Of a stretch of 64,000 bases of DNA, positions 7,354 to 58,262 are shown one piece after another. The stretch is from assembly GCA_963734845.1 (NCBI GenBank), contig CAVTIS010000018.1, positions 2,482 to 66,481 of the forward strand, written 5' to 3'. The translations under genes and the position numbers were made by a program. This stretch comes from an uncultured delta proteobacterium (lineage in GTDB: Bacteria > Desulfobacterota > Binatia > Binatales > Binataceae). Under the pieces are notes generated by a model. That model searched no databases, was not told where the DNA came from, and saw nothing but the letters and a program-made list of their open reading frames with translations. Every line of letters begins with the position of its first letter. The stretch's first letter is position 1.

Positions 7354-7377
7354 AAAGCCTTGTTGAATAAAGGCTTT
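7354..7377. promoter_or_regulatory. Perfect 8-bp inverted repeat AAAGCCTT-n8-AAGGCTTT abutting the start codon of the minus-strand fusion gene
   Basis: Seen directly in the sequence. Candidate operator or 5'-UTR hairpin in the divergent promoter region 7352-7550. Confidence 0.35.
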
Positions 7378-7550
7378 TAGACTAATTGGAGACCAGAGTC
7401 AACGAACTGACCGTGCGGTCTGTCCGCTCGGTCACCCCTGCGCCAGCCCGCTGCCTGTTCATAACTCTTAACTTTCACGCAACCTTGCCGATTCAGTTCT
7501 TAACGGTCTCATTTGTAGAGGCCCAATGCGAGGGCTGATAAGCTGGCCCC

Positions 7551-17805: not shown

Positions 17806-18807
17806 ATGCGAGTACCGCTGAAGTTGATGCTGGACCTTGGCCGCTACATGCGCCGCAAGCGGCGCGCGGGCGAGAAGTACTTCCCGCTGGTGCTCATGCT
17901 GGAACCTTTGCACGCATGCAACCTCGCCTGCATCGGGTGCGGCCGAATCGTTGAATACAAGGACACCATCCGCGACCAGATGCCGCTGGAGGAGGCGCTC
18001 GGCGCCGCCGAAGAAGCCGACGCGCCAATCGTTTCGATCTGCGGCGGCGAGCCGCTGATGTACAAGCATATAGTGCCGCTCACCAAGGGGTTGCTCGAAT
18101 ACAAGCGCCACGTCCAGATCTGCACCAACGCGCTCCTGCTCGAACGCTTTGTGCGAAGCGTGGAGCCCAGCCCCTACCTGAGTTTCAACGTGCATATCGA
18201 CGGCATGCGCGAGACCCACGACCGCGTGGTCGATCGCAACGGCGTTTTCGACATCTGCGTACGCATGATCAAGATGCTCAAGGAGCGGGGCTATCGCGTG
18301 CAGACCAACTCGACCATCTTCCGCGAGACTGGCGCGGAGGAGATCGAGGAGCTGGTCAAGATGCTCGGCGGACTCGGCGTCGACGGGATGCTGCTCACGC
18401 CCGGATACCACTACCAGGTACTGACCAACGACGACATCTATTTGAAGCGCGAGGAGATGCCGCTGAAGTTCAAGCGCGTGCGCAAGCTCGCCGAGGACTA
18501 CAAGATCATTAATACCCCGATCTATCTCGACTACCTGGTCGGCGACCGCGACCTCTTGTGCAGCCCCTGGACCACCGTCACGCGCAATCCGCAAGGCTGG
18601 AAGGGCCCCTGCTACTTGATCACCAACGGCCACTACAAGACCTTCGGACAGATGCACGAGGCGACCGATTGGGAGTACTACCGCACCAAGCAGGATATTC
18701 GATGCCGCGATTGCAAGCTGCACTCCGGCTTCGAGGGCACCGCGGCGCTGCAGTTCGGCGAGAATCTGAAGGACTCGTGGCGGATGGTGCGGCACTATAT
18801 GTCCTGA
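17806..18807 (+). CDS. hpnH: Adenosyl-hopene transferase, radical SAM
   Basis: PLVLMLEPLHACNLACIGCG radical SAM cluster motif. Full-length similarity to HpnH (CTNALLLE, GYxYQ, PCYLI). Confidence 0.9.
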   Translation: MRVPLKLMLDLGRYMRRKRRAGEKYFPLVLMLEPLHACNLACIGCGRIVEYKDTIRDQMPLEEALGAAEEADAPIVSICGGEPLMYKHIVPLTKGLLEYKRHVQICTNALLLERFVRSVEPSPYLSFNVHIDGMRETHDRVVDRNGVFDICVRMIKMLKERGYRVQTNSTIFRETGAEEIEELVKMLGGLGVDGMLLTPGYHYQVLTNDDIYLKREEMPLKFKRVRKLAEDYKIINTPIYLDYLVGDRDLLCSPWTTVTRNPQGWKGPCYLITNGHYKTFGQMHEATDWEYYRTKQDIRCRDCKLHSGFEGTAALQFGENLKDSWRMVRHYMS

Positions 18808-18896
18808 CCGTGGATGCCGCGCCGCGTACTGGGCGCGGCCGCGCCCATGGGCAGTACGAAGACGACCTTGCGATAAGGACAGAGTAGAGAGCCTCG

Positions 18897-19916
18897 ATGG
18901 CGGAAGTGAAATCCGATCGGTCCGACCATGCGCGAACCCAAGGCGGCGCGCTCGCCGCGAACGCCGACCCGCGTGCCACGGCGGCCGACGGACATTCCCA
19001 CGCGCACGCCGGTGCGCCGCCGTTCGAAATCGATCGCTACCTGCGCGAGCGCGCGGCTATGGTCGAGCGCGCGCTCGCCAGCGTGGTCGCCGGTCCCGGC
19101 ACTCCAGCCGCCCGACTGTTCGAGTCGATGCGCTACAGCCTGCTCGCGGGCGGCAAGCGGCTGCGCCCGGTGCTGGCCCTGGCAGCGTGCGAAGCGGTCG
19201 GCGGCAGCCTTGAATCCGCGATGGGGTTCGCGTGCGCGATCGAGATGATTCATACCTACTCTCTTATCCACGACGACCTGCCCTGCATGGACGACGACGA
19301 TCTGCGCCGCGGCCGCTCGACCAATCACAAGATTTATGGCGAGGCGATTGCAACTCTGGCCGGTGATGCGCTCCTGACCGACGCTTTCTGGATCCTCGCC
19401 AGATCGGGATCGTCGTCCGCCAGCGTGGCTCCCGCGGCCCTGCTCGCGACCGTCGCCGAACTGGCCGAGGCGGCGGGCTCGGCCGGAATGGTCGCGGGGC
19501 AAGCGATCGATCTGCTCGGTGAAGGCCGCACCATGACGGTCGAGGAACTGGAATATCTGCATCGCAGAAAAACCGGCGCGCTTTTCGTCGCCGCGGTGCG
19601 CGGCGGGGCGCGCCTGGGCGGCGCTCGCGAGGCTGAACTTGAGGCGCTGGAGACCTATGCGCGCGCGCTTGGCCTTGCCTTCCAGGTGATCGATGACATC
19701 CTCGACGTCGAGGCCTCGACCGCGCAGATGGGCAAGCGCACGGGCAAGGACGCCGCGCACGGCAAAAACACTTATCCCGCCCGAATCGGCCTGGACAAGT
19801 CATGGCAGCTCGCGCGCGATCTCGAGCGCCGCGCGCGTCACGCACTCGACGGTTTCGATCATCGCGCCGAACCGCTGCGGGCGCTTGCGAGTTTTGCCGT
19901 GGAGCGCAGGTTGTGA
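18897..19916 (+). CDS. Polyprenyl diphosphate synthase (FPP/GGPP synthase, IspA-like)
   Basis: First aspartate-rich motif IHDDLPCMDDDDLRRG and GKRLRP. About 40-aa His-rich N-terminal extension, so the start is uncertain. Confidence 0.85.
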   Translation: MAEVKSDRSDHARTQGGALAANADPRATAADGHSHAHAGAPPFEIDRYLRERAAMVERALASVVAGPGTPAARLFESMRYSLLAGGKRLRPVLALAACEAVGGSLESAMGFACAIEMIHTYSLIHDDLPCMDDDDLRRGRSTNHKIYGEAIATLAGDALLTDAFWILARSGSSSASVAPAALLATVAELAEAAGSAGMVAGQAIDLLGEGRTMTVEELEYLHRRKTGALFVAAVRGGARLGGAREAELEALETYARALGLAFQVIDDILDVEASTAQMGKRTGKDAAHGKNTYPARIGLDKSWQLARDLERRARHALDGFDHRAEPLRALASFAVERRL

Positions 19917-21007
19917 AGTTAGCCGGGGCTGAAAATTTTTCTCCGCCGTCCGCGCCCACGCCGGACGCGCGCCACGGCGTGGCACGCCGGGCCGTGCTGT
20001 TCGCGCCGGGCGATCTGCGCCTCTGCGAGTTCACGCCGCCGCGCCCGGGCCTCGGCGAGCTTTTGTTGCGCGTCAAATGCGCGCTCAGTTGCGGCACCGA
20101 TCTCAAGACCTATCGCCGCGGCCATCCGATGTGGCGTCTGCCCACGCCGTTCGGTCACGAGTTTGCAGGCGTGGTGGTCGAAGCGGGCGAGGGCGTGACC
20201 CGCTTCAAGGCTGGCGACGAGTTGATGGCCGCGCCCACCGCGCCGTGCGAAAAGTGCTTCTTTTGCCTGCGCGGACAGGAAAATCTTTGTCCGCAGGCGA
20301 TGGAAAAAATGGTGATGGGGGCGTATGCGGACTTCTTGCTGTTGCCCGCACACGTGGTTGCGTGCAACGCCTTTCGCAAGCCCCCGGCGCTCGCCTTCGA
20401 AGAGGCCGCGCTGCTCGAACCGCTTTCCTGCATCGTTCATGCGCAGGCCCTGGCGCGGCCCGAGCCCGCCGAGAGCGTGCTGATAATCGGCGCGGGAGCC
20501 TTCGGTTTGCTCCACTTGCTTGCCCTTCGCGCGAACGGGGTGCGCGAGGTCGCGGTCGCGGGACGTGGCGCGAATCGTCTGGAATGGGCGGGACGGCTCG
20601 GCGCCGGCCGCGTGATCGATACTGCCACGGGCGATCCCGCGGCCGAAGTTGCGCGGCTCAATGGGGGCTTCGGCCCTGACCTGGTGATCGAGTGCACCGG
20701 CCAGGTCGAAGGATGGCGCGACGCGTTCGCGCGCGTTCGCCGCGGCGGCCGAGTGGTGTTCTTCGGCGGATGTGCCGCGGGCACCGCGCTCGAAGTCGAC
20801 ACGCGCCGCATGCACTACGACAATCTTACGCTGATCGCTCCGTTTCATTTTCGTCCGCGCGACGTGCGCAGCGCCTACGATTTGCTCGCGGACGGCCGCC
20901 TCGGCGCCGGACGCATCATCAGTGCGCATCGGCCGCTCGCGGATATCGCGGGAGTTTTTGAGCTGCTCGAGCGGGGTACGGTGTTGAAATGCGCGGTCAT
21001 TCCTTAG
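19913..21007 (+). CDS. Zinc-type medium-chain dehydrogenase/reductase (alcohol dehydrogenase family)
   Basis: CGTDLKTYRRGH, GHEFAGVV, and GAGAFGLL Rossmann motif. GTG start overlaps the polyprenyl synthase TGA (GTGA). Confidence 0.75.
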   Translation: MKLAGAENFSPPSAPTPDARHGVARRAVLFAPGDLRLCEFTPPRPGLGELLLRVKCALSCGTDLKTYRRGHPMWRLPTPFGHEFAGVVVEAGEGVTRFKAGDELMAAPTAPCEKCFFCLRGQENLCPQAMEKMVMGAYADFLLLPAHVVACNAFRKPPALAFEEAALLEPLSCIVHAQALARPEPAESVLIIGAGAFGLLHLLALRANGVREVAVAGRGANRLEWAGRLGAGRVIDTATGDPAAEVARLNGGFGPDLVIECTGQVEGWRDAFARVRRGGRVVFFGGCAAGTALEVDTRRMHYDNLTLIAPFHFRPRDVRSAYDLLADGRLGAGRIISAHRPLADIAGVFELLERGTVLKCAVIP

Positions 21008-21108
21008 GGCTTCGCGCCCCGAGGGTATGACGGCACGAGGTGGCGAGGGTGTTGAGAAGTCCGAATCCAGCGCTCCGATCTAAATAACCGGCAGGAATCT
21101 CGAATCCT

Positions 21109-23124
21109 ATGAGTGAAGCTATCGAAATCACCAACGGCAGAGTCCCGGAACAAACGCCCGAGCAGACCCTGGACCAGACGCCGAAACAGACAGGGGCCGC
21201 GCTTGCGCCGCGCGACGATACCGCCGCAAAGGTCCAGTCCTGTCTCGACCGCTCGCAGCGCGCGTTGCTCGCCCTTCAGCATCCGGAGGGCTACTGGCAG
21301 GCGGCGCTCGAGGCCAACGCGGAGATGAACGCCGAGTTCATCATCTTTAATCGCTTCATGGGCGTCAGCGACCCGGAGATGGATGCCAAGCTCAAGCGCC
21401 ATCTGCTCGATCTCCAGCAGGCCGATGGCAGCTGGAACCTGTTTCCTGGCGGCGAGGGCGATCTCTCGACCTCGATCGAGGCCTACTTCGCGCTCAAGCT
21501 GACCGGGATGCGCGCCGGCGACGAACAGATGATGCAGGCGCGCCGCTGGATTCTCGCGCGTGGCGGGATCGCTCGCTCGGGCACGCTCGCCCGCGTTTAT
21601 CTCGCGGCCATGAACCAGGTGCCGTGGGATTGCACGACCGCGCTGCCGGTGGAATGGATTCTCACCCCCGACTGGCTCCCGGTTAATATCTACGAACTTT
21701 CTTCATGGGCGCGTGGCACGCTGGTCGCGCTGATGCTGCTCCGCGCGGGGCGTCCGATCGTCGAGATCGATTGGCGCGAAGGCGTACTTGAGCTTTACAT
21801 CCAGCCGCCGCATTTTACCAAGTTCGAACAGCCGCGTCCGGCGCACTGGTATTCGCCGCGCCGGTTCTTCAATCTCGCCGATCGACTGCTGCGCCTGTAC
21901 GACCGCCATCATCTGAAGCGCCTACGCCGCGACGCCATCGCACGCGCCGAGCGCTGGCTACTCGACCATCAGGACGCCAACGGATCGTGGGGCGGAATAC
22001 AGCCCTGCTACCTGCTGAGCACGATGGCGCTTAAGGGTCTCGGCTATCGCAACGACCATCCGGTGATCAAAAAAGCGCTCGCCGCAACCCACGAGCTGAT
22101 TTGGGATCAGGGCGACTCGATCCTCTTCCAACCATGCGTATCGCCCAACTGGGACACCGCGCTCGCCGCCAAGGCGTTGATCGATTCGGGCCTCCCGCCC
22201 GAACATCCGGCGCTGCGCGACGCCTCGAAGTGGCTCATCGATCACCAGATATTCAAGCGGGGCGATTGGTCGATCAAGCGGCCCGACCTCGAGCCCGGCG
22301 GATGGGCCTTCGAGTTTTTCAATGACTGGTATCCCGACGTCGACGATGCCGCGGTCATCCTGATGGTGCTCGCGGATTCCGCCAGCGACGATGCGGCTGC
22401 GTGCGAGCGCGCGATCAGCCGCGGTGCGAATTGGGTGATGGGCATGCAGTCGAAGGACGGCGGCTTCGCCGCTTTCGATGTCGACAACAAAGCGACCTGG
22501 TTCAACTACGCGACCTTCGCGGCCGACACTGAGTCGGCAACCGACCCGACCTGCCCCGACCTCACCGGCCGCGTGCTCGAGATGATGGCGGCAACGGGCT
22601 ATCGGGCCGACCATGCGGTGGCCCGCCGCGCGATCGATTGGCTCAAACGCGAGCAGGAGGATGACGGTTCGTGGTGGGGGCGCTGGGGGGTCAACTATAT
22701 CTACGGCACCAGCACCGCGCTTTCGGGCTTGCGCGCGATTGGCCTCAGCCCGAGCGAGCCGTGGATTCAGCGCTCGGTCGCCTGGATCAAGTCGAAACAG
22801 AACGAGGACGGCGGATGGGGCGAGAGCTGTCTTAGCGACAAGGACCCGGCCTGGCGCGGGCGCGGCACCAGTACGCCTTCCCAAACCGCATGGGCGATGA
22901 TCGCGTTGTTGGCCGGCGAGGACGGTATCAGCCCGCAGCTGATGCGTGGCTTGCAGTGGCTGGTGGAGCGGCAGCGCGAAACCGGCGATTGGGAGGAGAC
23001 CGAGTTCACCGGCACCGGCTTTCCCAATCATTTTTACCTGCGTTATCATCTTTATGCGCACTACTTTCCGCTGATGGCGCTCGGGCGTTTGCGCAAGCGG
23101 ATGATCGAACTCGCCGCTAACTGA
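21109..23124 (+). CDS. shc: Squalene-hopene cyclase
   Basis: DVDDAAV catalytic motif, multiple QW repeats (QxxDGSW/GGW), about 670 aa. Confidence 0.95.
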   Translation: MSEAIEITNGRVPEQTPEQTLDQTPKQTGAALAPRDDTAAKVQSCLDRSQRALLALQHPEGYWQAALEANAEMNAEFIIFNRFMGVSDPEMDAKLKRHLLDLQQADGSWNLFPGGEGDLSTSIEAYFALKLTGMRAGDEQMMQARRWILARGGIARSGTLARVYLAAMNQVPWDCTTALPVEWILTPDWLPVNIYELSSWARGTLVALMLLRAGRPIVEIDWREGVLELYIQPPHFTKFEQPRPAHWYSPRRFFNLADRLLRLYDRHHLKRLRRDAIARAERWLLDHQDANGSWGGIQPCYLLSTMALKGLGYRNDHPVIKKALAATHELIWDQGDSILFQPCVSPNWDTALAAKALIDSGLPPEHPALRDASKWLIDHQIFKRGDWSIKRPDLEPGGWAFEFFNDWYPDVDDAAVILMVLADSASDDAAACERAISRGANWVMGMQSKDGGFAAFDVDNKATWFNYATFAADTESATDPTCPDLTGRVLEMMAATGYRADHAVARRAIDWLKREQEDDGSWWGRWGVNYIYGTSTALSGLRAIGLSPSEPWIQRSVAWIKSKQNEDGGWGESCLSDKDPAWRGRGTSTPSQTAWAMIALLAGEDGISPQLMRGLQWLVERQRETGDWEETEFTGTGFPNHFYLRYHLYAHYFPLMALGRLRKRMIELAAN

Positions 23125-23141
23125 CGCTCAAGGGGCAAAGC

Positions 23142-24317
23142 GTGAAGTCGATCGCAATACTCGGCTCCACGGGCTCGGTCGGGGTAACCACGCTCGACGT
23201 GGTGGATCGCTTCCGTGACCGTTTTCGCGTGGTCGCGATGGCCGCCGGGAACAATCTCGATCTCCTGGTTCGCCAGGTCGAACGTCATCGCCCCGAGCTG
23301 GTTTCGGTCGCGACGGCCGAATTAGCAGGCGAATTGAAGCGGCGGCTCGGCCCGTCGTGTAAAATCGAAATTCATCATGGACGCGAAGGCGCGGTCGCAG
23401 TGGCGACTCATCCTGCGGCCGCGATCGTTGTTTCGGCTCTGGTGGGCGCGCTCGGACTCGGTCCCACGCTCGCCGCTATTGCTGCCGGCAAGGATATCGC
23501 GTTCGCCAACAAGGAAGTGCTGGTAATCGGGGGCGAGATGATGACCGCCGCGGTGCGCCAGCGCGGCGTGCGCCTGCTCCCGGTCGATAGCGAGCACAAT
23601 GCGATTTTCCAGTGCCTGGAAGGACGTGGCCGCGCCTCGCTCAAGCGCATCATCCTAACCGCCTCAGGTGGCCCGTTTCTTCGCCTGCCGGCCAATAGTT
23701 TTGCGTCGATAACCGTCGCCGAGGCGCTCAACCATCCTACCTGGCGGATGGGCAACAAGATCACGATCGATTCCGCGACCCTAATGAACAAGGGGCTCGA
23801 AGTGATCGAGGCGCACTGGCTATTCGATCTTCCCGCTGAACGCATCGACGTCGTCATCCATCCGCAAAGCGTCATCCATTCGATGGTCGAGATGATCGAC
23901 GGCTCCGTGATCGCGGAAATGGCGGAGCCGGACATGGCAATCCCGGTCGCCTACGCACTCGCGTTTCCCGATCGCCTGCCGCTCGACCATCTGAAATCGC
24001 TTTCGCTGGTCGAGCGCGGCAACCTGACTTTCGAAGAGCCCGATCCGGCGCGTTTTCCGTGTCTTGGCCTCGCCTACCAGGCGCTCGAGGCCGGCGGCAC
24101 GATGGCGGCCTGCCTCAACGCCGCCAATGAGGAACTCGTTGCAGCCTTCCTCGGCGGCCGCGCGCGCTTCGCCGACATTCCACGCCATATCGAGACCGTG
24201 ATGACCCGTCATAAAAATGGCCCTGCGCGCACCCTGGAGGATCTCTACGAGGTCGACGGATGGGCCCGCGCCCAGGCGCAGGAACTGATCGGACAGGCGC
24301 CTGCCGCGAGCCTCTGA
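23142..24317 (+). CDS. dxr: 1-deoxy-D-xylulose-5-phosphate reductoisomerase
   Basis: ILGSTGSVG NADPH loop, LANKE, DSEHNAIFQ. GTG start with AAGGGG RBS. Confidence 0.95.
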   Translation: MKSIAILGSTGSVGVTTLDVVDRFRDRFRVVAMAAGNNLDLLVRQVERHRPELVSVATAELAGELKRRLGPSCKIEIHHGREGAVAVATHPAAAIVVSALVGALGLGPTLAAIAAGKDIAFANKEVLVIGGEMMTAAVRQRGVRLLPVDSEHNAIFQCLEGRGRASLKRIILTASGGPFLRLPANSFASITVAEALNHPTWRMGNKITIDSATLMNKGLEVIEAHWLFDLPAERIDVVIHPQSVIHSMVEMIDGSVIAEMAEPDMAIPVAYALAFPDRLPLDHLKSLSLVERGNLTFEEPDPARFPCLGLAYQALEAGGTMAACLNAANEELVAAFLGGRARFADIPRHIETVMTRHKNGPARTLEDLYEVDGWARAQAQELIGQAPAASL

Positions 24318-24318
24318 C

Positions 24319-25236
24319 GTGGACGCCGAAGGCGCCGACAATTCAACTTCAGCGCTCACGCGCAATGCGCGCGCTGCGGTTCCGTCTTCCGACGCCGCGA
24401 TGCTCGCTGAGGCCTATGAGTTCTGCGCACGTGTCGCACGGTCGCACTACGAAAATTTCACCGTCGCGTCGTGGCTGATGCCACGTGCGATGCGCAAGCA
24501 CATGCACGCTATTTACGCTTACGCCCGCATGGCCGACGACTTTGCCGACGAGGAGCACAATCCGGCCAAGCTCGATGAATGGGAACGCGAACTCGATTTC
24601 GCCTACGCCGGCGCGCCGCGCCATCCGGTATTCGTTGCGCTGGCCGACACCGTGCGCTGTTTCGACATTCCGCGCGAACCGTTCGCCGATCTGCTGCGTG
24701 CGTTTCGCTCCGACCTGGATTTTCGCGGCTTCGAGACTATCGACGACCTCCTCCAATACTCACGCTACTCGGCCGATCCCGTCGGCCGGCTGGTGCTCTA
24801 TTTATTCGGCTATCGCGACCTCGGGCGCCAGGGTCTCTCCGACCAGGTGTGCAGCGGGCTTCAACTCGCGAACTTCTGGCAGGACATCGCGATCGATCTC
24901 GAGAAGGGGCGCGTCTATCTGCCGCGCCAGGACATGACGCGCTTCGGCGTGAGCGTCGAGGATCTGCGCCTGCGCAACGCGAACTCGAACTTCGCTGCGC
25001 TGATGCGCCATGAGGTCGCGCGCGCGCGCGAATTGCTGATGTCGGGCGGGCCGCTTGCTGCGATGGTGGACAAGCGGCTCTCGCGCGACATCATGATGTT
25101 CGCCGGCGGCGGACTCGCGATCCTGCGTGCTATCGAGCGGGCGGATTACGACGTCTTTCGCCATCGCCCGGCCCTCGGCAAAATGGACTACCTGCGCCTG
25201 GGCTGGCGAGCATTGCGGGGGCGCCTTGAAACCTGA
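24319..25236 (+). CDS. hpnC: Squalene synthase-family enzyme (hydroxysqualene synthase, HpnC-like by position)
   Basis: SQS/PSY family: YENFTV, YAYARMADDFADE (DxxxD). GTG start 1 nt after the dxr stop; an alternative ATG exists at 24400. Confidence 0.8.
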   Translation: MDAEGADNSTSALTRNARAAVPSSDAAMLAEAYEFCARVARSHYENFTVASWLMPRAMRKHMHAIYAYARMADDFADEEHNPAKLDEWERELDFAYAGAPRHPVFVALADTVRCFDIPREPFADLLRAFRSDLDFRGFETIDDLLQYSRYSADPVGRLVLYLFGYRDLGRQGLSDQVCSGLQLANFWQDIAIDLEKGRVYLPRQDMTRFGVSVEDLRLRNANSNFAALMRHEVARARELLMSGGPLAAMVDKRLSRDIMMFAGGGLAILRAIERADYDVFRHRPALGKMDYLRLGWRALRGRLET

Positions 25237-25255
25237 GAGCATCGCGGTTGCATCG

Positions 25256-26155
25256 ATGCCCGCGGCGGATGCGGCGCTGCGGGAAGACTACGCGCGTTGC
25301 GCGTCGATCACGCGACGCTCTTCGTCAAATTTCTATTATGCGTTTATGCTGTTGCCGGCCGAGCGCCGCCAGGCGCTTTACTCGGTCTATGCGTTTTGCC
25401 GCTTTGTCGATGATATTGCCGATGACGCCGTCGGCGACGAAGCGGGCGGCAAGCCCGCGAAACTGCTGGCGCGCTGGCGCGAGGAGCTCGAGCGCGTGTT
25501 CAACGGCTCCCCGACTCATGCGATATCCCGTGCGCTCGCCTACAACGTGCGCCGCTTCGCGATCCCGCGTCGCTACTTCGAAGAGATAATCGACGGTGTC
25601 GAAATGGACCTGGGACGCACGCGCTATGCGACTTTCGAGGAGCTTCGCCTGTACTGCTACCGCGTCGCCTCGGCGGTCGGCCTCGTGTGCATTGAAATTT
25701 TCGGCTATCGCAACCCGCGCACTCGCGAGTACGCGGAAAATCTCGGTATCGCCTTCCAGCTCACCAACATCATCCGCGACTTGAGCGAAGATGCCGCCCG
25801 CGGCCGTATCTATCTGCCGCTGGAAGACCTCGCCCGCTTCGATGTCAGCGAGGACGAAATCCTGCGCGGCGCCGACACGCTCGAGCTTCGCCGCCTGCTG
25901 GAGCATGAGGTCGAACGGGCGCGCTCGTTTTACGCTCAGGCGGAAAACGCGCTGGCAGCCGAAGATCGCGCCGCGATGGTGTGTGCAGAGGCGATGCGTT
26001 CGATCTACCGTGCGCTGCTCGAGCGGATCGCGAGCAAAGGCTGCGGCGTGGTCGGCCGGCGCCATCGCATCTCCACCCCCCGCAAGCTTTACCTGGTCGG
26101 CCGCACCTGGGCCGGTACGCGGTTGCGGGCGCGCGGCCAGGAGCGCGATGGTTGA
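25256..26155 (+). CDS. hpnD: Squalene synthase-family enzyme (presqualene diphosphate synthase, HpnD-like by position)
   Basis: FYYAFMLLP, YAFCRFVDDIADD, NIIRDLSEDAARGRIYLP. Confidence 0.8.
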   Translation: MPAADAALREDYARCASITRRSSSNFYYAFMLLPAERRQALYSVYAFCRFVDDIADDAVGDEAGGKPAKLLARWREELERVFNGSPTHAISRALAYNVRRFAIPRRYFEEIIDGVEMDLGRTRYATFEELRLYCYRVASAVGLVCIEIFGYRNPRTREYAENLGIAFQLTNIIRDLSEDAARGRIYLPLEDLARFDVSEDEILRGADTLELRRLLEHEVERARSFYAQAENALAAEDRAAMVCAEAMRSIYRALLERIASKGCGVVGRRHRISTPRKLYLVGRTWAGTRLRARGQERDG

Positions 26156-27521
26156 GCCGCGCGACGTCGTCGTAATCGGCGGCGGATTCGCCGGACTGAG
26201 CGCTGCCGTCGCACTTTCCAACCGGGGCTTTCGCGTCGCGGTGCTGGAAAGCAAACCGGCCCTGGGCGGCCGCGCTTATTCGTTCGCCGACAGCGAGACC
26301 GGCGATTTCGTCGATAACGGCCAGCATGTCCTGATGGGATGTTACGCCGAGACGTTCAGGTTTCTCGATCGTATCGGTCAAGGCGGCCAGCTGGTTTTCC
26401 ACCCCGACCTCGCAATCGAGATGCTCGAGCGCGACGGGCGCGCCGGCGTGCTCAAAACCGCGCGCTTGCCGGGGCCGCTACACATGGTCGCCGCGCTGAT
26501 GCGTTATGGGCTGCTGACGCCGCGCGAGCGGCTCGGCGCGATGGTCGCGGGGCTCAGAATGCTGCGGATGCATCGTTATGACCGCGGACGTCTGGGCCAG
26601 ATGACCGTAAGGACGGTGATGGATGTGCTGGGGCAGGGTGAACGCGCGCGGCAATGTCTGTGGTATCCGCTGGCGATTGCGACGCTTAACGAGGATCCCG
26701 ATCTTGCCTCGGCGGCTTTGCTGGCGGAAGTCTTAAAGCGCGCGTTTTTTTCGCGCCGCTCCGATTCCGCCTTCGTTTACGCCAGGGTCGGGCTCAGCGA
26801 CCTTTATTGCCCGGGCTCCGTTCGGATGATCGAATCGAGCGGAGGACTGGTCGAGACTCGTGCGGTGGTCGAGATGCTGGAGTTCGGTGCGGAGGGCAAG
26901 ATTGAGGGCGTGCGGCTCCGCGACGGCCGGCGTTTGCAGGCCGCCAACTTTATCGCCGCGGTGCCTCCCGCGCAGCTCGCGCGCCTTCTGCCTGAAGGGG
27001 CAAGCGCTGATCCATTCTTTGCACATCTGGGCGAGATTACTTCGTCGCCAATCGTTTGCGTTCATGCGTGGTTCGATCGCGAAATCACTGACGCGCCTTT
27101 TGTCGGCTTCGTCGGCACGGCTACCCAATGGCTATTCAACAAGCGCCGGATCTTTGCTGAAAATGGCGCACGGGCCAATGGCTATTTGAGTTTCGTCATC
27201 AGCGGCGCGCGCAGGCTGGTTGACGCGGGCAATGAAGAACTGCTCGACCTGGTCACCGGTGATTTGCACGCGATGATTCCCGCCTCGCGCGGCGCGCGCC
27301 TGCTCAAGGCCTTGGTGCTCAAGGAGAAACAGGCGACCATGGCGCCGTCGCCAGAGTGCGACCGCTTGCGTCCAGGTTTGGCGACGCCGATCGCAAACTT
27401 TTTCCTTGCCGGCGATTGGATTCAGACCGGGCTGCCGGCGACGATCGAGAGCGCAGTTACGTCGGGACATGCCGCGGCAGCTGCCATAGCCGAGCGGGTT
27501 GGCGACGCGGTGACGGTCTGA
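26148..27521 (+). CDS. hpnE: Hydroxysqualene dehydroxylase / FAD-dependent desaturase
   Basis: FAD-binding N-terminus DVVVIGGGFAGLSAAVAL and amine-oxidase-like fold. ATG overlaps the hpnD stop by 8 nt. Confidence 0.85.
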   Translation: MVEPRDVVVIGGGFAGLSAAVALSNRGFRVAVLESKPALGGRAYSFADSETGDFVDNGQHVLMGCYAETFRFLDRIGQGGQLVFHPDLAIEMLERDGRAGVLKTARLPGPLHMVAALMRYGLLTPRERLGAMVAGLRMLRMHRYDRGRLGQMTVRTVMDVLGQGERARQCLWYPLAIATLNEDPDLASAALLAEVLKRAFFSRRSDSAFVYARVGLSDLYCPGSVRMIESSGGLVETRAVVEMLEFGAEGKIEGVRLRDGRRLQAANFIAAVPPAQLARLLPEGASADPFFAHLGEITSSPIVCVHAWFDREITDAPFVGFVGTATQWLFNKRRIFAENGARANGYLSFVISGARRLVDAGNEELLDLVTGDLHAMIPASRGARLLKALVLKEKQATMAPSPECDRLRPGLATPIANFFLAGDWIQTGLPATIESAVTSGHAAAAAIAERVGDAVTV

Positions 27522-27526
27522 AGCGT

Positions 27527-28558
27527 ATGGCTACGCGAATCGCTCTGGTCACGGGCGCCAACGGCTTCGTGGGATGCTACGTGGTGCGTGCGTTGCTCGC
27601 GCGTGGAACCCCGGTGCGCGCGATGGTGCGCAAGGGGGCAGACTTGCGCGCGCTCGAAGGTTTGTCGTGCGAGTTTGTCTGGGGTGACTTGCGCGATGCC
27701 GCGGCAGTGGAGCAGGCGACGCGCGGATGCGACGAGGTCTATCATGTCGCCGCGGACTATCGGCTGTGGGTCCTCGATCCTGCGCCTATGTATGCCTCGA
27801 ACGTCGAGGGCACGCGCAACGTGCTTGCCGCGGCGCATCGCGCCAAAGTCCGCCGAGTCGTCCATACCAGCACGGTCGGTGCTATCGGTATCCCGCACGG
27901 CGAATCCGGGCGCGAGGACACGCCGGTGTCGCTGGGAGACATGGTCGGTCCTTACAAGCGATCGAAGTTTCTGGCCGAGCAGGAAGCGCTCAAGGCGGCG
28001 CGTGAAGGCGTACCGGTCGTGATCGTCAATCCGTCCACACCGGTCGGCGCGCACGATTATAAGCCGACTCCCACCGGACGGATAATCGTCGATTTCCTCA
28101 ATCGGCGGATGCCCGCCTTCATGGACACGGGGCTGAACCTGGTCGACGTCGAGGACGCGGCAGCGGGCCATCTGCTGGCCGCAGAGCGCGGCGTGGTCGG
28201 CGAGAAATATATTCTCGGTGGCGAAAACCTGACGCTGGAGCAGACGCTGGGGCGCCTGGCGAAGCTATCCGGCCTGAGCGCTCCGAGAATTCGCGTTCCC
28301 TATGCGGTCGCGTGGACTTTCGCGCTGGGGGCCGAGGCGGTAGCGCGCACCATCACCCGGCGCCCGCCGCGCGCGAGCCTGACCGAGGTCCGGATGGCGC
28401 GCAAGGTAATGTTTTTCGATTCTTCCAAGGCGCGCACGGCGCTGGGATACGAGCCGCGTCCGATCGATGATGCGCTTGCGCGCGCGATCGAATTCTTCCG
28501 CTCAATCGGCGCCGTGCAGGAAGCGGCGCATCGCGGTCGGGATGAGCGTCCGGCTTAA
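27527..28558 (+). CDS. hpnA: NAD-dependent epimerase/dehydratase (hopanoid-associated sugar epimerase)
   Basis: LVTGANGFVGCYVV Rossmann motif and YKRSK catalytic motif. Sits immediately after hpnE. Confidence 0.8.
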   Translation: MATRIALVTGANGFVGCYVVRALLARGTPVRAMVRKGADLRALEGLSCEFVWGDLRDAAAVEQATRGCDEVYHVAADYRLWVLDPAPMYASNVEGTRNVLAAAHRAKVRRVVHTSTVGAIGIPHGESGREDTPVSLGDMVGPYKRSKFLAEQEALKAAREGVPVVIVNPSTPVGAHDYKPTPTGRIIVDFLNRRMPAFMDTGLNLVDVEDAAAGHLLAAERGVVGEKYILGGENLTLEQTLGRLAKLSGLSAPRIRVPYAVAWTFALGAEAVARTITRRPPRASLTEVRMARKVMFFDSSKARTALGYEPRPIDDALARAIEFFRSIGAVQEAAHRGRDERPA

Positions 28559-37604: not shown

Positions 37605-39221
37605 ATGGCCGAGCAGCGAAGGCGCAGCTTCTGGGGATGGGGCTACGAGGATCAGCAGCCCAACGCGGAGCAGCTGAAAAATCTCGCGGAGCGGATGGCC
37701 AAGCGGTTCGGGCTAACGCCGCTGACCATCGTGCCGCTGCCGCGCGAAGAGGAACTCAAGTTGCGAGCGCCGCGAATAAAGCCGCCCGACGCGCTCGCGA
37801 CCATCTTCTCGACCAGTACCTATGATCGCGCCGGCCATAGTTATGGCCGCAGCTATCGCGACGTGGTGCGCGCGTTTCGCCACTTCTACCCCAATCCGTT
37901 CGACGCGGTCGCCTTTCCCCACGACGAGGCCGAGCTCACCCGCGTGCTTGAATGGTGCGATAAGGAGCGTATCGCGGCGACGCCGTACGGCGGCGGTTCG
38001 AGCGTGGTAGGCGGCGTCGAACCGCCCGCGGGCGGCGACTGGCGCGGCTCCGTGTCGATCGACCTGACCCGGCTCGACCGCGTGCTCGAAGTCGACCATA
38101 CCTCGCGCGCGGCGCGGATCCAGGGCGGCGTGCTTGGCCCCTCGCTCGAGGACCAGTTACGCCCGCACAACTACACGCTCCGTCACTACCCGCAGTCTTT
38201 CGAATTTTCCACGCTGGGGGGATGGATCGCGACGCGCTCGGGCGGTCATTTTGCGACGCTGTACACGCATATCGACGATTTCGTGGAATCGGTTCGAGTG
38301 CTTACGCCGACTGGCGTTATCGAATCGCGCCGTCTGCCCGGCTCAGGCGCCGGGCCGAGTCCCGACCGGATGTTTATCGGATCGGAAGGAATTCTCGGCA
38401 TCATCACCGAGGCCTGGATGCGCCTGCAGGACCGGCCGAAGTTTCGCGCCGGCGCTTCGGTCGCGTTTGCTGATTTTATGGCCGGCGCCGATGCGGTACG
38501 CGCGGTCGCTCAGGCCGCGCTCTATCCGGCCAACTGCCGCCTGCTCGACGCGGGCGAGGCGGCCAATGCCGGCGCCAACCAGGGCGAGGCTGCCGTGCTG
38601 GTGCTGGCCTTTGAGTCGGCCGACCATGAGTTGGAGCCGTGGATGAAGCGCGCGCTCGAAATATGCGCCGACCTTGGAGGAAAAATTCCCGAGGGCGCGG
38701 GCCGCACGCGCACCGACACCGCCGCTACGCATGAGGGCGCGGCCGGAGCCTGGCGCGAGGCCTTCATCAAGGCGCCATACCTACGCAACTCGCTGGCTGC
38801 GATGGGAATCGTGACCGACACCTTCGAGACCGCGATCACCTGGGACCGTTTTCCCGCCTATCACGCGCAATTGATGGAAACCGGGACCGACGCGATAAGG
38901 CGCATCTGCGGCCAGGGCACGATGACTTGCCGTTTCACGCATGCTTATCCGGACGGTCCCGCGCCGTACTACACGATTCTGGCGCCGGGCAAACCGGGCT
39001 CAGAACTGGAACAATGGGACGAAATCAAGGCGGCAGTGTCAGAGGTGATCGTGAAGTTCGGCGGCACGATCACGCATCATCATTCGGTCGGCCGCGACCA
39101 TCGGCCATGGTACGATCGGCAGCGGCCTGAGGGCTTCGCGCGGGCTCTGAAAGCGGCCAAGCGGGCGCTCGACCCGCATGCGATTCTCAATCCGGGAGTG
39201 CTGATTGATCCTGAGCGCTAG
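37605..39221 (+). CDS. FAD-linked oxidase (PCMH-type FAD-binding; alkyl-DHAP synthase-like)
   Basis: N-terminal WGWGY segment, FAD-binding-4 domain (PYGGGSSVVGG), and C-terminal FAD-oxidase domain ending in a HHHSVGRDH-like motif. GGAGGG RBS. Confidence 0.75.
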   Translation: MAEQRRRSFWGWGYEDQQPNAEQLKNLAERMAKRFGLTPLTIVPLPREEELKLRAPRIKPPDALATIFSTSTYDRAGHSYGRSYRDVVRAFRHFYPNPFDAVAFPHDEAELTRVLEWCDKERIAATPYGGGSSVVGGVEPPAGGDWRGSVSIDLTRLDRVLEVDHTSRAARIQGGVLGPSLEDQLRPHNYTLRHYPQSFEFSTLGGWIATRSGGHFATLYTHIDDFVESVRVLTPTGVIESRRLPGSGAGPSPDRMFIGSEGILGIITEAWMRLQDRPKFRAGASVAFADFMAGADAVRAVAQAALYPANCRLLDAGEAANAGANQGEAAVLVLAFESADHELEPWMKRALEICADLGGKIPEGAGRTRTDTAATHEGAAGAWREAFIKAPYLRNSLAAMGIVTDTFETAITWDRFPAYHAQLMETGTDAIRRICGQGTMTCRFTHAYPDGPAPYYTILAPGKPGSELEQWDEIKAAVSEVIVKFGGTITHHHSVGRDHRPWYDRQRPEGFARALKAAKRALDPHAILNPGVLIDPER

Positions 39222-56154: not shown

Positions 56155-57747
56155 ATGCCCGACACATTGCCGAGTTTCTCGCTCGACGACCAGCATCGCC
56201 GCGCACATTCGTTCCCCGGCGGGCGGCCCGCGCTGCTCTGCTTCGTCAAGGAAGATTGCCCGACTTGCGGCCTGACGATGCCGCTGATCGAGGCGGCGGC
56301 GCAGGCCTTTCGCGGTAAAGTCGATGTGGTCGCGATCGGCCAGGACGCGGCCGGCAATGCGCTTCTCGTCGAGCGGCACAAGTTCACGGCGCCGATGCTC
56401 GATGATTCGGATCTGAAAATCTCTTACGCCTACAATGTCGAGATCGTTCCGACGATCATCCTCGCGGACGGCCGCGGAGCCGAATTGCGCCGCTTCGAAG
56501 GCTTCGACAAGTCCGATTGGCAGCGCGCGCTCGCGGATATAGCGCATCTGGCTGGTGGATCCGAGGCGCAAATCGATTGGAGCGCCTTCCCTAAATCGCG
56601 TCCCGGATGCGGCTCGAAATCGGTCGAACCCGGGGTGGCAGAGCGGCTCGCCGCCGCAGCGTCGGGCTCGCGCCTGCGCGCCCGTCAGATCGAGCTTGGC
56701 GCTGACGAAGACCCGTTCGAATTCATGTTCGAGCGTGGACTCACCGACGGCCTGCCGGTGGTGCCGCCGACGCCCGAGCGCGTGATGCGGATGCTCACCG
56801 GGACGCCGCGCGATCCGCAGGAAGTGATCGCGACCGTGCCGCCGAATCTGGCGCCGCTCACGATTGAGAAGGTTGCCGCCAACGCCGTGATGGCCGGGTG
56901 CAGGCCCGAATATTTGCCGGTAGTGATCGCGGTTCTCGAAGGGGTGTGCACCGACGAGTTCAATATTCATGGCGTGATGGCGACTACGGCAGGCGCCACA
57001 CCGATCGTCGTAGTCAACGGTCCGATCCGCCATCGGCTCGGCATGAACATGAAGGTCGGCGCGCTGGGCTCCGGCAATCGCGCGAACGCGACCATCGGGC
57101 GCGCGGTCAAGCTCGCGCTGCGCAACGTTGGCGGCGCGCGGCCGGGCGAGATCGAACGCACTGCGCTCGGCGGCCCGGGCAAGTACACCGCCTGCTATCC
57201 CGAATGGGAGGAGCGCAGCCCGTGGGAGCCGCTCCACGTCGAGCGCGGCTTTCGCGCCGAAGACAGCGTGGTAACGGTTTTCGGCCTGGAGCCGGGTCCG
57301 CGGCTGATCGTCGACCAACTCTCGCGCACCGCTCATGCGCTCGCCGGAAGCCTTGGGATGGCGCTCGAGAGCTGCTGGCATCCCAAGCTTCACGGTTACG
57401 GCGAAGTCCTGCTGGTCATCTCGCCCGAGCACGCCGACACGATCAAACGCGACGGCTGGAGCAAGGCGCAGGTGCGCAATCGAATCCAGGAGGCGAGCGC
57501 GCGGCCGATCCGCGAGCTGTTGCCCGACGCCAACGCCGGCGAAGGGATGGCGCTGCGGAATTTCGGTCTGAGCAATCCGACCCCGGAGCAACTCGAGCAG
57601 CGCATCCCGAAGTTCCGCAAGCCCGAGAATATCAATATCATCGTGACCGGCGGCGAGGCCGGCAAGTTTTCGAGCGCATTCGGTGGATGGTTCAGTGGGC
57701 CGATGGGCTCGATAAGCGTGAGCCGGAAAATCGAGGAGGTGACATGA
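56155..57747 (+). CDS. Thioredoxin-fold (CxxC) domain fused to large uncharacterized domain
   Basis: N-terminal LLCFVKEDCPTCGL thioredoxin-like motif. About 400-aa C-terminal region of unknown family. Its stop overlaps the next start (ATGA). Confidence 0.6.
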   Translation: MPDTLPSFSLDDQHRRAHSFPGGRPALLCFVKEDCPTCGLTMPLIEAAAQAFRGKVDVVAIGQDAAGNALLVERHKFTAPMLDDSDLKISYAYNVEIVPTIILADGRGAELRRFEGFDKSDWQRALADIAHLAGGSEAQIDWSAFPKSRPGCGSKSVEPGVAERLAAAASGSRLRARQIELGADEDPFEFMFERGLTDGLPVVPPTPERVMRMLTGTPRDPQEVIATVPPNLAPLTIEKVAANAVMAGCRPEYLPVVIAVLEGVCTDEFNIHGVMATTAGATPIVVVNGPIRHRLGMNMKVGALGSGNRANATIGRAVKLALRNVGGARPGEIERTALGGPGKYTACYPEWEERSPWEPLHVERGFRAEDSVVTVFGLEPGPRLIVDQLSRTAHALAGSLGMALESCWHPKLHGYGEVLLVISPEHADTIKRDGWSKAQVRNRIQEASARPIRELLPDANAGEGMALRNFGLSNPTPEQLEQRIPKFRKPENINIIVTGGEAGKFSSAFGGWFSGPMGSISVSRKIEEVT

Positions 57748-58262
57748 CTCGAATTGTTGACCCGACCGACGAACGCGTGCCGCTCAGCCGCACGCTCGCG
57801 TCGCGCCCGCAACGTCTGAGCGGCGTGGTGGCGCTGCTCGACATCGTCAAGCCGCGCGGCGACGTCCTGCTTGACCGGATCGAGCAGCGGCTTGCCGAGC
57901 GGGTGCCCGGCCTCGCGCTCAGGCGCTACCGCAAACCGACCTTCGCCAAACCGGCGCCCGACGAGCTGCGCCGCAGGATTGCCGCGGAGAGTGACTTCGT
58001 TATCGAAGCGCTTGCCGATTGAGGGTCGTGTACAACGTGCAGTGTGCACGACTCAGTATGGTTTGAAGTGAACGGCAAGCCCTCGGTGGTGGTAGCGTCC
58101 TCGACCTTCGTAGATGCGGCCGAGGCGCAGGCGCGCGCGCTCGGATTGCCGGAAGTCCGCCGCATTTTCGTGCCCCATCCGATCCAGGATGCGACCGACG
58201 ATGAGATGCGCGGGAAAGCCGACGCGATCGTCGAACGGCTGATCGAGGCGCTGACGAGTTAG
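57744..58262 (+). CDS. UGSC-type selenoprotein (in-frame TGA at 58020-58022 read as selenocysteine)
   Basis: Track ORFs 57744-58022 and 58044-58262 are in the same frame and separated only by a TGA. Readthrough gives ...EALAD-U-GSCTTCSVHDSVWFEV... (U-G-S-C, then a second Cys 3 residues on). GAGGAGG RBS before 57744; no RBS before 58044. Confidence 0.6.
58024..58051 (+). other. Putative SECIS-like hairpin immediately 3' of the in-frame UGA
   Basis: GUCGUGUACA / UGUGCACGAC 10-bp stem (one G-U) with 8-nt apical loop ACGUGCAG, starting 3 nt after the UGA. Confidence 0.45.

What the first reader, a model, noticed from the sequence alone, without database searches (positions are those of the whole stretch)
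57744..58262. In-frame UGA joining two ORFs yields a UGSC-motif selenoprotein, with a hairpin immediately downstream (candidate SECIS)
What the sequence shows:
- ORF 57744-58022 and ORF 58044-58262 share a frame and are separated only by TGA at 58020-58022.
- Reading the TGA as Sec gives ...FVIEALAD-U-GSCTTC-SVHDSVWFEV... That is a U-G-S-C motif with a second Cys three residues later (a U-x-x-C-x-x-C redox arrangement).
- The second ORF has no RBS of its own. The first has a perfect GAGGAGG.
- A 10-bp stem hairpin begins 3 nt after the UGA.

Established knowledge:
- Bacterial Sec incorporation needs a SECIS hairpin directly 3' of UGA.
- RefSeq uses the name UGSC family (seleno)protein for small proteins with exactly this motif (recalled from memory).

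Inference:
- This is a 172-aa selenoprotein. Gene callers will split it or call it a pseudogene.
Basis: partly seen in the sequence, partly recalled or inferred. Interest (0 to 1): 0.7.

Follow-up and report, generated by a model that had tools for sequence, protein, structure and literature searches.

The report
UGSC-family selenoprotein gene, split by callers
This is one 172-codon gene for a small selenocysteine-containing protein of the already described "UGSC" family, which gene callers wrongly cut in two at the UGA; it is an ordinary member of a known family whose biochemical function is still unknown.

Summary
Window 57744-58262 (+) is a single gene with an in-frame TGA at 58020-58022. 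With Sec read as Cys, the 172-aa product passes the curated cut-offs of NCBIfam NF041046 "UGSC family (seleno)protein" and Pfam PF24696 over nearly its full length. The TGA sits at the same codon in 23 of 24 homologous loci from at least six bacterial lineages. Cys occupies that column in 66 of 73 full-length homologs. The part after the TGA is as conserved as the part before it. It places G23-U24 in its loop in the same register as E. coli fdhF. It is intact in 18/18 Sec forms and 1/66 Cys forms, and it coincides with the only stretch of the gene with no synonymous variation. The family has been known since 2007-2008 with no assigned function. Additions here: the predicted fold is flavodoxin-like, not thioredoxin-like; the third Cys is not family-wide; the overlapping upstream 530-aa gene is an obligate partner, fused to UGSC elsewhere, with an unnamed domain. 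Sec machinery in this genome could not be checked.

The parts
57744..58262 (+). Complete UGSC-family selenoprotein gene (172 codons including Sec93; TAG stop at 58260-58262)
   Evidence: Translation. NF041046 159.9 bits vs cut-off 125, and PF24696 165 bits over residues 4-171. The C-terminal half is as conserved as the N-terminal half in 13 distant loci.
57733..57739 (+). Shine-Dalgarno GAGGAGG, 4 nt before the ATG, lying inside the 3' end of the upstream gene
   Evidence: Read directly. The upstream stop TGA at 57745-57747 overlaps the ATG at 57744-57746 (ATGA), which suggests translational coupling (inference).
58020..58022 (+). In-frame UGA read as selenocysteine (residue 93)
   Evidence: TGA at the same codon in 23 of 24 homologous loci. 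Cys in this column in 66 of 73 full-length homologs.
58036..58050 (+). Conserved SECIS core, hairpin B: stem CGUGCA/UGCACG (nt 17-22 with 26-31, counting the U of UGA as 1), loop G23 U24 G25 (58042-58044)
   Evidence: 6/6 pairs in 14/14 plus 4/4 unique Sec-form sequences, against 1/66 Cys forms. The only run of codons without synonymous variation, codons 98-101. Ser100 is AGU in 14/14 Sec forms and in 0/32 Ser codons of Cys forms. Same register as fdhF nt 15-31 with G23/U24 (PMC8659212).
58025..58052 (+). It shares its 3' arm with hairpin B, so the two exclude each other
   Evidence: It is the MFE fold of the isolated window RNA: -14.9 kcal/mol against -7.4 for B. Only 86% of cells are paired, and pairs 6-33, 9-30, 14-25 and 15-24 are broken in 4-6 of 14 lineages.
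58044..58262 (+). Spurious 'second ORF' (GTG start, 72 aa) produced by gene callers; really the C-terminal part of the selenoprotein
   Evidence: Same frame and no RBS. On record as a separate hypothetical protein, sometimes mislabelled SsuD-like.
56155..57747 (+). Partner gene, 530 aa: N-terminal thioredoxin-like domain (AhpC/TSA, CPTC at 56257-56268) plus an unnamed ~345-aa C-terminal domain (about 56641-57672) with near-invariant Cys249 (56899-56901) and Cys347 (57193-57195)
   Evidence: Pfam and NCBIfam hit only the N-terminal ~117 residues. The gene lies directly upstream in every Sec-form locus with enough DNA. Its C-terminal domain is fused to Cys-form UGSC in P0203, P0262, P0212, P0204 and P0151, with E 1e-47 to 4e-72. 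It is linked to 31 of 33 Cys-form loci. Cys conservation.

Best explanation
Window 57744-58262 is one gene of a Candidatus Binataceae bacterium encoding a 172-aa UGSC-family selenoprotein. During translation the UGA at 58020 is decoded as selenocysteine. The most likely route (inferred) is that SelB carrying Sec-tRNA(Sec) binds a small mRNA hairpin at 58036-58050, which starts 13 nt after the UGA and presents G23 and U24 in its loop, as in the E. coli fdhF SECIS. The product is predicted to be a flavodoxin-like (beta-alpha)5 domain. Sec93 sits immediately after strand 3 at the N-terminus of helix 3, and Cys96 lies one helical turn later, giving a U-x-x-C selenol/thiol redox pair. It most probably works with the protein of the overlapping upstream gene (56155-57747). 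That protein carries a thioredoxin-like CPTC domain and an unnamed domain with two near-invariant cysteines. Inferred mechanism: reducing equivalents pass through a thiol/selenol relay between the Trx-like domain, the UGSC U-x-x-C site and the partner domain, whose substrate is unknown. Shown here: gene structure, family membership, the Sec/Cys pair, RNA conservation, and partner linkage including gene fusion. Inferred: SelB binding, actual Sec insertion in this organism, the redox relay and its direction.
For: Family membership passes curated cut-offs over nearly the full length. TGA is at the identical codon in 23 of 24 loci from Binatia, Gammaproteobacteria, Betaproteobacteria, Dehalococcoidia/Chloroflexi, Acidimicrobiia and Acidobacteria. 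About 110 of 120 top homologs are truncated exactly at ...VIEALAD. Cys is at the Sec column in 66 of 73 full-length representatives, and C96 is near-invariant. The downstream half is 43-73% identical against 34-70% for the upstream half. Hairpin B is 100% paired in all Sec forms, with two pairs changing on one side only, and is fully paired in only 1 of 66 Cys forms. Codons 98-101 are the only run without synonymous change. AGU occurs in 14/14 Sec forms against 0/32 in Cys forms, and G23U24 in 14/14 against 3/66. The fdhF geometry is taken from PMC8659212. TGA is an ordinary stop for many Pfam-confirmed genes in the window, so this is not a genome-wide recoding. AF2 models have pLDDT 92.7 and 93.5. 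The literature describes the family as a selenoprotein of unknown function (PMC1976440, PMC2398784, PMC13188914).
Against: No selA, selB, selD or tRNA-Sec lies in the 64-kb window or in the flanks of any fetched locus, and the rest of the genome could not be searched. No Rfam family matches. Hairpin B has no compensatory double changes, only invariance and two one-sided changes, so support comes from synonymous-site constraint and the Cys-form contrast, not classical covariation. A third hairpin, C (nt 10-14 with 18-22), is also 100% compatible. In the isolated RNA, stem A is more stable than B. There is no bulged U equivalent to fdhF U17. The Sec forms are one related clade, so part of the nucleotide identity is shared ancestry, although free synonymous variation elsewhere in the same genes controls for this. 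The redox-relay mechanism rests only on motifs, linkage and predicted structure.
Confidence: 0.9

Rival explanations
1. The TGA is a genuine stop. The locus then encodes a 92-aa protein plus a separate 72-aa protein, or it is a pseudogene broken by a nonsense mutation or sequencing error.
For: Gene callers in all public sources call it this way. No Sec machinery was seen in the window. One homologous locus, L001, has a sense codon (GGA) together with a frameshifted partner gene, so decay of this locus does happen.
Against: The same TGA is in 23 of 24 loci across phyla, and the exact sequence occurs on 37 contigs, which excludes a sequencing error or a recent mutation. The downstream frame is conserved at protein level as strongly as the upstream one. 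The second ORF has no RBS, and its GTG lies inside the conserved hairpin. Cys-form homologs are single proteins.
Confidence: 0.03
2. The UGA is read through, but not as selenocysteine: for example near-cognate Trp or Cys insertion, or an alternative genetic code (UGA = Trp or Gly), as the database entries P0002 (W) and P0001 (G) might suggest.
For: P0002 and P0141 show W, and P0001 shows G, at the Sec column. Sec machinery is untested for this genome.
Against: Many Pfam-confirmed genes in the window end in TGA, including the partner gene itself, squalene-hopene cyclase and Dxr, so the organism uses TGA as a stop. W at the Sec column would be expected from gene calls made under code 4; this was not checked at DNA level. 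P0001 has a real GGA codon. A hairpin with the fdhF register and GU loop is kept only in UGA forms, which is what SelB-dependent decoding predicts and plain read-through does not.
Confidence: 0.04
3. The functional SECIS is the first reader's long stem A (58025-58052, 8-nt loop containing G18-U19), not hairpin B. A variant of this rival has A and B alternating as a switch.
For: A is the minimum-free-energy fold in the window and its close relatives: -14.9 to -21.6 kcal/mol, with 9-10 of 10 pairs in Binatia. 86% of cells are paired overall, against 10-57% when the partner columns are slid. Mean A pairing is higher in Sec forms than in Cys forms (8.6 vs 6.2 of 10).
Against: A falls to 6 of 10 pairs in Gammaproteobacteria and Bryobacterales loci, and four of its pairs are broken in 4-6 of 14 lineages. 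Third-codon positions 6, 9, 12 and 15 in its 5' arm vary freely, while 18, 21, 24 and 27 are fixed. Inference from the 11-nt spacer of the E. coli minimal SECIS (PMC8659212): with UGA in the A site, nt 6-15 lie in or at the ribosome's mRNA channel and cannot be paired.
Confidence: 0.15

Closest known systems
UGSC-containing protein / UGSC family (seleno)protein (NCBIfam NF041046, Pfam PF24696; Zhang & Gladyshev 2007-2008, PMC1976440, PMC2398784)
   Same: Same family by curated HMM cut-offs. Same U-G-S-C motif at the same position and the same size (~170 aa). Sec forms outnumber Cys forms, as in GOS (255 vs 21). A fusion to an unknown domain was already noted in 2008. The function is still listed as unknown in a 2026 review (PMC13188914).
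   Different: Nothing essential differs. This is a soil-type Candidatus Binataceae member, whereas the family was described from marine and aquatic data and Hyphomonas. The 2008 suggestion of a thioredoxin-like fold is not borne out by the AF2 model, which is (beta-alpha)5 flavodoxin-like.
E. coli fdhF bacterial SECIS (minimal 17-nt stem-loop, nt 15-31 after the U of UGA)
   Same: A hairpin inside the coding sequence spanning nt 17-31, with G23 and U24 in the apical loop and a U-A, G-C, C-G, A-U upper stem.
   Different: No bulged U17. The loop has 3 nt (GUG or GUU), or 5 nt if the A-U pair opens, instead of GGUC. The spacer is 13 nt instead of 11. SelB binding is not tested. There is no Rfam model.
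TlpA/ResA-type thiol-disulfide oxidoreductases (AhpC/TSA, Redoxin; N-terminal domain of the partner protein)
   Same: The N-terminal ~117 residues of the 530-aa partner hit AhpC/TSA above the Pfam cut-off (31.9 vs 26 bits) and carry a CPTC motif.
   Different: NCBIfam ResA and TlpA-type models score far below their cut-offs (28.7 vs 170). The protein carries an extra ~345-aa domain with no Pfam, NCBIfam or PDB relative. Many family members lack the Trx-like domain altogether (371-aa forms).
Flavodoxin-like / Rossmann-like three-layer alpha/beta domains (e.g. Mmp7 and McrC in 8s7v, periplasmic-binding-protein subdomains, flavodiiron flavodoxin domains)
   Different: Sequence identity is 5-17%, with no shared motif and no evidence of a flavin or nucleotide site. 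This is a resemblance of general fold only.

Membership tests
UGSC family (seleno)protein (NF041046 / PF24696) | Whole-protein score above the curated cut-off with near full-length coverage | tested here: met
   NF041046 scores 159.9 bits vs 125, covering profile positions 4-147 of 147. PF24696 scores 165.3 bits vs 25, covering 2-171 of 172.
UGSC family (seleno)protein (NF041046 / PF24696) | U/C-G-S-C motif at the conserved position following the third beta-strand | tested here: met
   The window reads ALAD-U-GSC. 66 of 73 full-length relatives have C-G-[SAG]-C in the same columns. The position relative to strand 3 and helix 3 comes from the AF2 model of P0001.
Bacterial selenoprotein gene (general criteria) | In-frame UGA aligned with Cys in homologs (Sec/Cys pair) | tested here: met
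Bacterial selenoprotein gene (general criteria) | Protein-level conservation continues downstream of the UGA in the same frame | tested here: met
   The C-half is 43-73% identical in 13 distant loci, comparable with the N-half.
Bacterial selenoprotein gene (general criteria) | SECIS stem-loop shortly 3' of the UGA with G(U) in the apical loop | tested here: met
   Hairpin B at nt 17-31 with loop G23 U24. It is conserved in 18/18 Sec forms, fully paired in only 1 of 66 Cys forms, and under synonymous-site constraint.
Bacterial selenoprotein gene (general criteria) | The genome encodes selA, selB, selD and tRNA-Sec | not testable with these tools
   None in the window or in locus flanks. No paper links Binatia with selenocysteine.
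Bacterial selenoprotein gene (general criteria) | Selenium is actually incorporated at the UGA | not testable with these tools
   Needs 75Se labelling or mass spectrometry.
E. coli fdhF-type SECIS | Minimal stem-loop within nt 15-31, with G23 and U24 in the apical loop | tested here: met
   Alignment A4 has G23, U24 and the stem columns invariant. The reference geometry is from PMC8659212.
E. coli fdhF-type SECIS | Bulged U17 in the 5' strand of the upper stem | tested here: not met
   Position 17 is C (U in one locus) and pairs with G31. No bulge occurs in any of the 14 sequences.
Thioredoxin-fold oxidoreductase (fold suggested for UGSC in PMC2398784) | Thioredoxin fold (mixed beta-sheet, beta-alpha-beta-alpha-beta-beta-alpha core) | tested here: not met
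Thioredoxin-fold oxidoreductase (fold suggested for UGSC in PMC2398784) | C/U-x-x-C redox motif at the N-terminus of a helix | tested here: met
   Sec93 follows strand E85-91 and helix H94-109 begins at the next residue, in P0001 numbering.
GrdB/PrdB reductase selenoprotein B (PF07355); a lead recalled from memory (UxxCxxC, 'PHP' motif) | Detectable sequence similarity to the GRDB profile | tested here: not met
   hmmscan of seven UGSC proteins at E <= 10 returned only PF24696. No solved GrdB or PrdB structure appeared among the fold hits, and the AlphaFold library was unavailable, so a distant structural relationship remains open.

The most novel reading that the evidence does not exclude
The UGSC selenoprotein and the unnamed ~345-370-aa domain of its neighbour form an obligate two-component (seleno)thiol enzyme. 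Its catalytic partner domain would be a fold and family not yet catalogued: no Pfam or NCBIfam model and no PDB match, despite at least 7,000 members in soil and aquatic bacteria. Sec93 or Cys would then act at the interface with the partner's invariant Cys249. The chemistry would be new, not simple disulfide exchange.
Probability: 0.35. Interest if true: 0.5.

Novelty: new member of a known kind. Interest (0 to 1): 0.25.

Why it matters
In practical terms, this gene and hundreds of relatives are split into two "hypothetical proteins" in public metagenome and MAG annotations. One half is sometimes mislabelled as SsuD-like, so selenoproteomes of soil phyla such as Binatia are under-counted. Scientifically, the case is a clean example of a bacterial SECIS dictating the peptide that overlaps it. 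The T-C-S-V/L-H-D codons are frozen only in Sec forms, which explains why the third Cys looks conserved in Sec forms but not across the family. The near-universal linkage, and occasional fusion, of UGSC with an uncharacterised large domain gives a concrete handle for finding the function of one of the most abundant orphan selenoprotein families. None of this would surprise a specialist in selenoproteins.

Tried and rejected
- **Rfam.** The scan at gathering thresholds over the whole window, and at E <= 10 around the site, gave nothing meaningful.
- **Sec machinery.** ARAGORN on the window and on 20 loci found no tRNA-Sec. Pfam annotation of 20 large window genes found no selA, selB or selD; they are hopanoid/isoprenoid, LPS and sugar-metabolism genes.
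- **Second selenoprotein gene.** A scan for another in-frame TGA with coding signal on both sides gave only one other candidate (- strand, 39266). I rejected it because its continuation is the antisense of the FAD-oxidase gene at 37605-39221.
- **GrdB/PrdB relationship.** I recalled this from the UxxCxxC and PHP motifs, but no profile hit appeared at E <= 10.
- **P0121.** This 651-aa "fusion" looks like a frameshift-garbled translation and was not used.
- **P0189.** This 5,236-aa protein with 19 "UGSC-like" stretches is a T/A/V/D-rich repeat protein. I treated the match as spurious.
- **Figure S1 of PMC2398784.** It is held only as an image, so I could not confirm that "Unknown_1" is the partner domain.
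- **Literature.** A search for Binatia plus selenocysteine found nothing.
Full report
**1. The observation**

- An ATG at 57744 is preceded by GAGGAGG at 57733-57739.
- The frame runs to a TGA at 58020-58022 and continues without another stop to TAG at 58260-58262.
- The "second ORF" listed at 58044-58262 is in the same frame. It starts at a GTG and has no purine-rich ribosome-binding site.
- Read through, the product is 172 aa: ...FVIEALAD-U-GSCTTCSVHDSVWFE...
- The ATG overlaps the stop of the upstream gene (ATGA at 57744-57747).
- A 10-bp stem starting 3 nt after the UGA is present. In a 62-nt context it folds at -21.6 kcal/mol with z = -2.1, and 6 of 200 shuffles fold as well, so by energy alone it is only modestly unusual.

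**2. Family membership**

With Sec written as Cys, the protein scores 159.9 bits against NCBIfam NF041046 "UGSC family (seleno)protein" (an equivalog model, cut-off 125). It scores 165.3 bits against Pfam PF24696 "UGSC family", covering residues 4-171 of 172.

The literature describes this family as the "UGSC-containing protein":
- It was first mentioned in 2007 as a selenoprotein of unknown function, also present in Hyphomonas neptunium (PMC1976440).
- It was one of the most abundant selenoprotein families in the GOS metagenomes, with 255 Sec forms and 21 Cys homologs (PMC2398784).
- A 2026 review still lists it among uncharacterised selenoproteins (PMC13188914).

**3. Is the UGA really decoded?**

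The window matches a Candidatus Binataceae MAG at 100% identity over the N-terminal half (L006).
- *Same codon across lineages.* I fetched loci from Binatia, Gammaproteobacteria, Betaproteobacteria, Dehalococcoidia, Acidimicrobiia, Bryobacterales and Blastocatellia. In 19 of 20 of them TGA sits at the identical codon and is followed by an open, conserved frame of about 80 codons. Four further loci on long contigs show the same.
- *Truncated database homologs.* About 110 of the 120 best homologs are 94-100 aa long and end exactly at ...VIEALAD. This is what gene callers produce when they stop at a conserved UGA.
- *This gene in public sources.* The exact 92-aa and 72-aa halves are on record as separate "hypothetical proteins", some mislabelled SsuD-like.
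- *Downstream conservation.* The segment after the UGA is 43-73% identical to the window in 13 distant loci. The segment before it is 34-70% identical.
- *Sec/Cys pair.* An exhaustive profile search found 1,052 relatives. Of 73 full-length representatives, 66 have Cys at the Sec column, and the Cys three residues later is almost invariant.
- *Not a recoded genome.* TGA is an ordinary stop for many Pfam-confirmed genes in the window.
- *One exception.* Locus L001 has GGA (Gly) at the site and a frameshifted partner gene. It is either decaying or poorly assembled.

**4. The Sec insertion signal**

The sequence after the UGA can form three mutually exclusive hairpins, because UGC-containing segments repeat. 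Numbering takes the U of UGA as position 1.
- **A** pairs nt 6-15 with 24-33.
- **B** pairs nt 17-22 with 26-31, with loop G23 U24 G25.
- **C** pairs nt 10-14 with 18-22.

Pair counts on 14 distinct Sec-form sequences:
- A has 86% of cells paired, and four of its pairs are broken in 4-6 lineages.
- B has 100% paired, with two pairs changing on one side only.
- C has 100% paired.

None shows double compensatory changes, so I used two other tests.

*Synonymous variation along the gene.* Conserved codons vary freely almost everywhere, including codons 94-97 right after the UGA. The single run with zero synonymous variation is codons 98-101 (ACG TGC AGT GTG, nt 16-27), followed by a nearly fixed CAC. 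This outlines B. It does not fit A, whose 5' arm third positions 6, 9, 12 and 15 all vary. It does not fit C either, because C leaves the invariant U24 and G27 unexplained.

*Cys-form control.* I fetched 80 Cys-form loci.
- B is fully paired in 1 of 66 distinct Cys forms, with a mean of 3.8 of 6 pairs.
- Where the Cys forms also have Ser at position 100, the codon is AGC (26) or UCN (6) and never AGU. In Sec forms it is AGU in 14 of 14, even in genomes of 69-72% GC.
- G23-U24 is present in 14/14 Sec forms and 3/66 Cys forms.

*Comparison with E. coli fdhF.* A review of the fdhF element places the minimal SelB-binding stem-loop at nt 15-31, 11 nt from the UGA, with G23 and U24 in the apical loop and a bulged U17 (PMC8659212). 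Hairpin B (window 58036-58050) has the same register and the same loop bases but lacks the bulge.

*Energetics and ribosome position.* In the isolated window RNA, A is more stable than B (-14.9 vs -7.4 kcal/mol). However, when the ribosome holds the UGA in its A site, the 5' arm of A lies in or at the mRNA channel. This is an inference from the 11-nt spacer of the minimal E. coli element. I conclude that B is the conserved SECIS core. A is a lineage-specific extension or competitor.

*A consequence for the peptide.* The sequence T-C-S-V/L-H-D after Sec, including the third Cys, is frozen in Sec forms largely because those codons form the hairpin.

**5. The protein and its partner**

*Fold.* AlphaFold2 models are confident:
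- Standalone homolog P0001 (58% identical to the window protein): pLDDT 92.7.
- Natural fusion P0262: pLDDT 93.5, pTM 0.93.

*Partner gene.* The upstream 530-aa gene (56155-57747) has an N-terminal AhpC/TSA-type thioredoxin-like domain with a CPTC motif. Its ~345-aa C-terminal domain has no Pfam, NCBIfam or PDB relative.
- The gene lies directly upstream of the UGSC gene in every Sec-form locus with enough DNA.
- Its C-terminal domain is fused to Cys-form UGSC domains in several proteins, with E 1e-47 to 4e-72.
- It is linked on the same strand to 31 of 33 Cys-form genes with sufficient flank.
- The family has thousands of members, all unnamed or named only after the Trx-like part.
- Two cysteines are nearly invariant: Cys249 in ANAVMAGC (95 of 96) and Cys347 (85 of 96).
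- It is probably the "Unknown_1" domain whose fusion to UGSC was noted in 2008. I could not verify this because the figure is an image.

*Proposed function.* A thiol/selenol relay among the Trx-like CPTC site, the UGSC U-x-x-C site and the partner domain is the most economical hypothesis, but it is inference. Other neighbours are not conserved. Acyl-CoA metabolism genes recur nearby, but they are too common in such genomes to carry weight.

**6. What could not be done**

No selA, selB, selD or tRNA-Sec is in the window or in any fetched flank.

**7. Verdict**

This is a new member, from Candidatus Binataceae, of a selenoprotein family known for nearly twenty years and already covered by curated models. 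Its interest is therefore modest. The points added here are:
- the position of the conserved SECIS core;
- the demonstration by Cys-form contrast and synonymous-site analysis;
- the flavodoxin-like predicted fold, as opposed to the thioredoxin-like fold proposed earlier;
- the near-universal pairing with an uncatalogued partner domain.

Noticed in passing
window 56641-57672 (C-terminal domain of ORF 56155-57747): A ~345-370-aa domain with no Pfam, NCBIfam or PDB match but thousands of homologs (at least 7,359-7,993 scored). It occurs standalone (~371 aa), behind a Trx-like domain (~530 aa), or fused to UGSC on either side. Motifs include DGLPVVPPT, ANAVMAGC, RANATIGRA, SPWEP, PEH and a GG-rich C-terminal motif.
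   Followed up: partly
L001 6001-6543 and 4515-5967: The only homologous locus with a sense codon (GGA, Gly) at the Sec position. Its partner gene is split by a frameshift. It is either a decaying locus or an error-prone assembly.
   Followed up: partly
proteins P0398, P0399, P0409, P0413, P0416, P0426, P0508 (412-434 aa) and P0401, P0406, P0408 (461-464 aa): Products carrying only part of the UGSC domain joined to the partner domain. Their ends fit Sec-containing fusion genes, in both domain orders, truncated by gene callers at the UGA. Not checked at DNA level.
   Followed up: no
protein P0223 (285 aa): A Cys-form UGSC domain fused to a C-terminal NifU-like domain (PF01106). This may hint at a link to Fe-S or thiol chemistry.
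   Followed up: no
L102 5131-7928: Two partner-type genes lie in tandem upstream of the UGSC gene: a 557-aa one with a faint Redoxin hit and a 375-aa one with no domain hit.
   Followed up: no
window 17806-28558 (+): A hopanoid/isoprenoid cluster: radical SAM with DUF3463, polyprenyl synthetase, squalene-hopene cyclase, DXP reductoisomerase, an amine-oxidase-type flavoprotein and an NAD-dependent epimerase. Several listed ORFs overlap (24319-25236, 25127-26155, 25791-27521, 27356-28558), probably because the listed start codons are too far upstream.
   Followed up: no
window 39266 (- strand): The only other in-frame TGA with high GC3 on both sides. Its continuation is antisense to the FAD-oxidase gene at 37605-39221, so it is most likely an artefact of high-GC antisense frames.
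   Followed up: partly
cluster of the 72-aa C-terminal fragment (window 58044-58262): Several JGI entries label this fragment 'alkanesulfonate monooxygenase SsuD/methylene tetrahydromethanopterin reductase-like', an annotation with no support here.
   Followed up: no
protein P0189 (5,236 aa): A giant T/A/V/D-rich repeat protein reported with 19 stretches matching the N-terminal part of the UGSC profile. It looks like a compositional or repeat artefact.
   Followed up: partly
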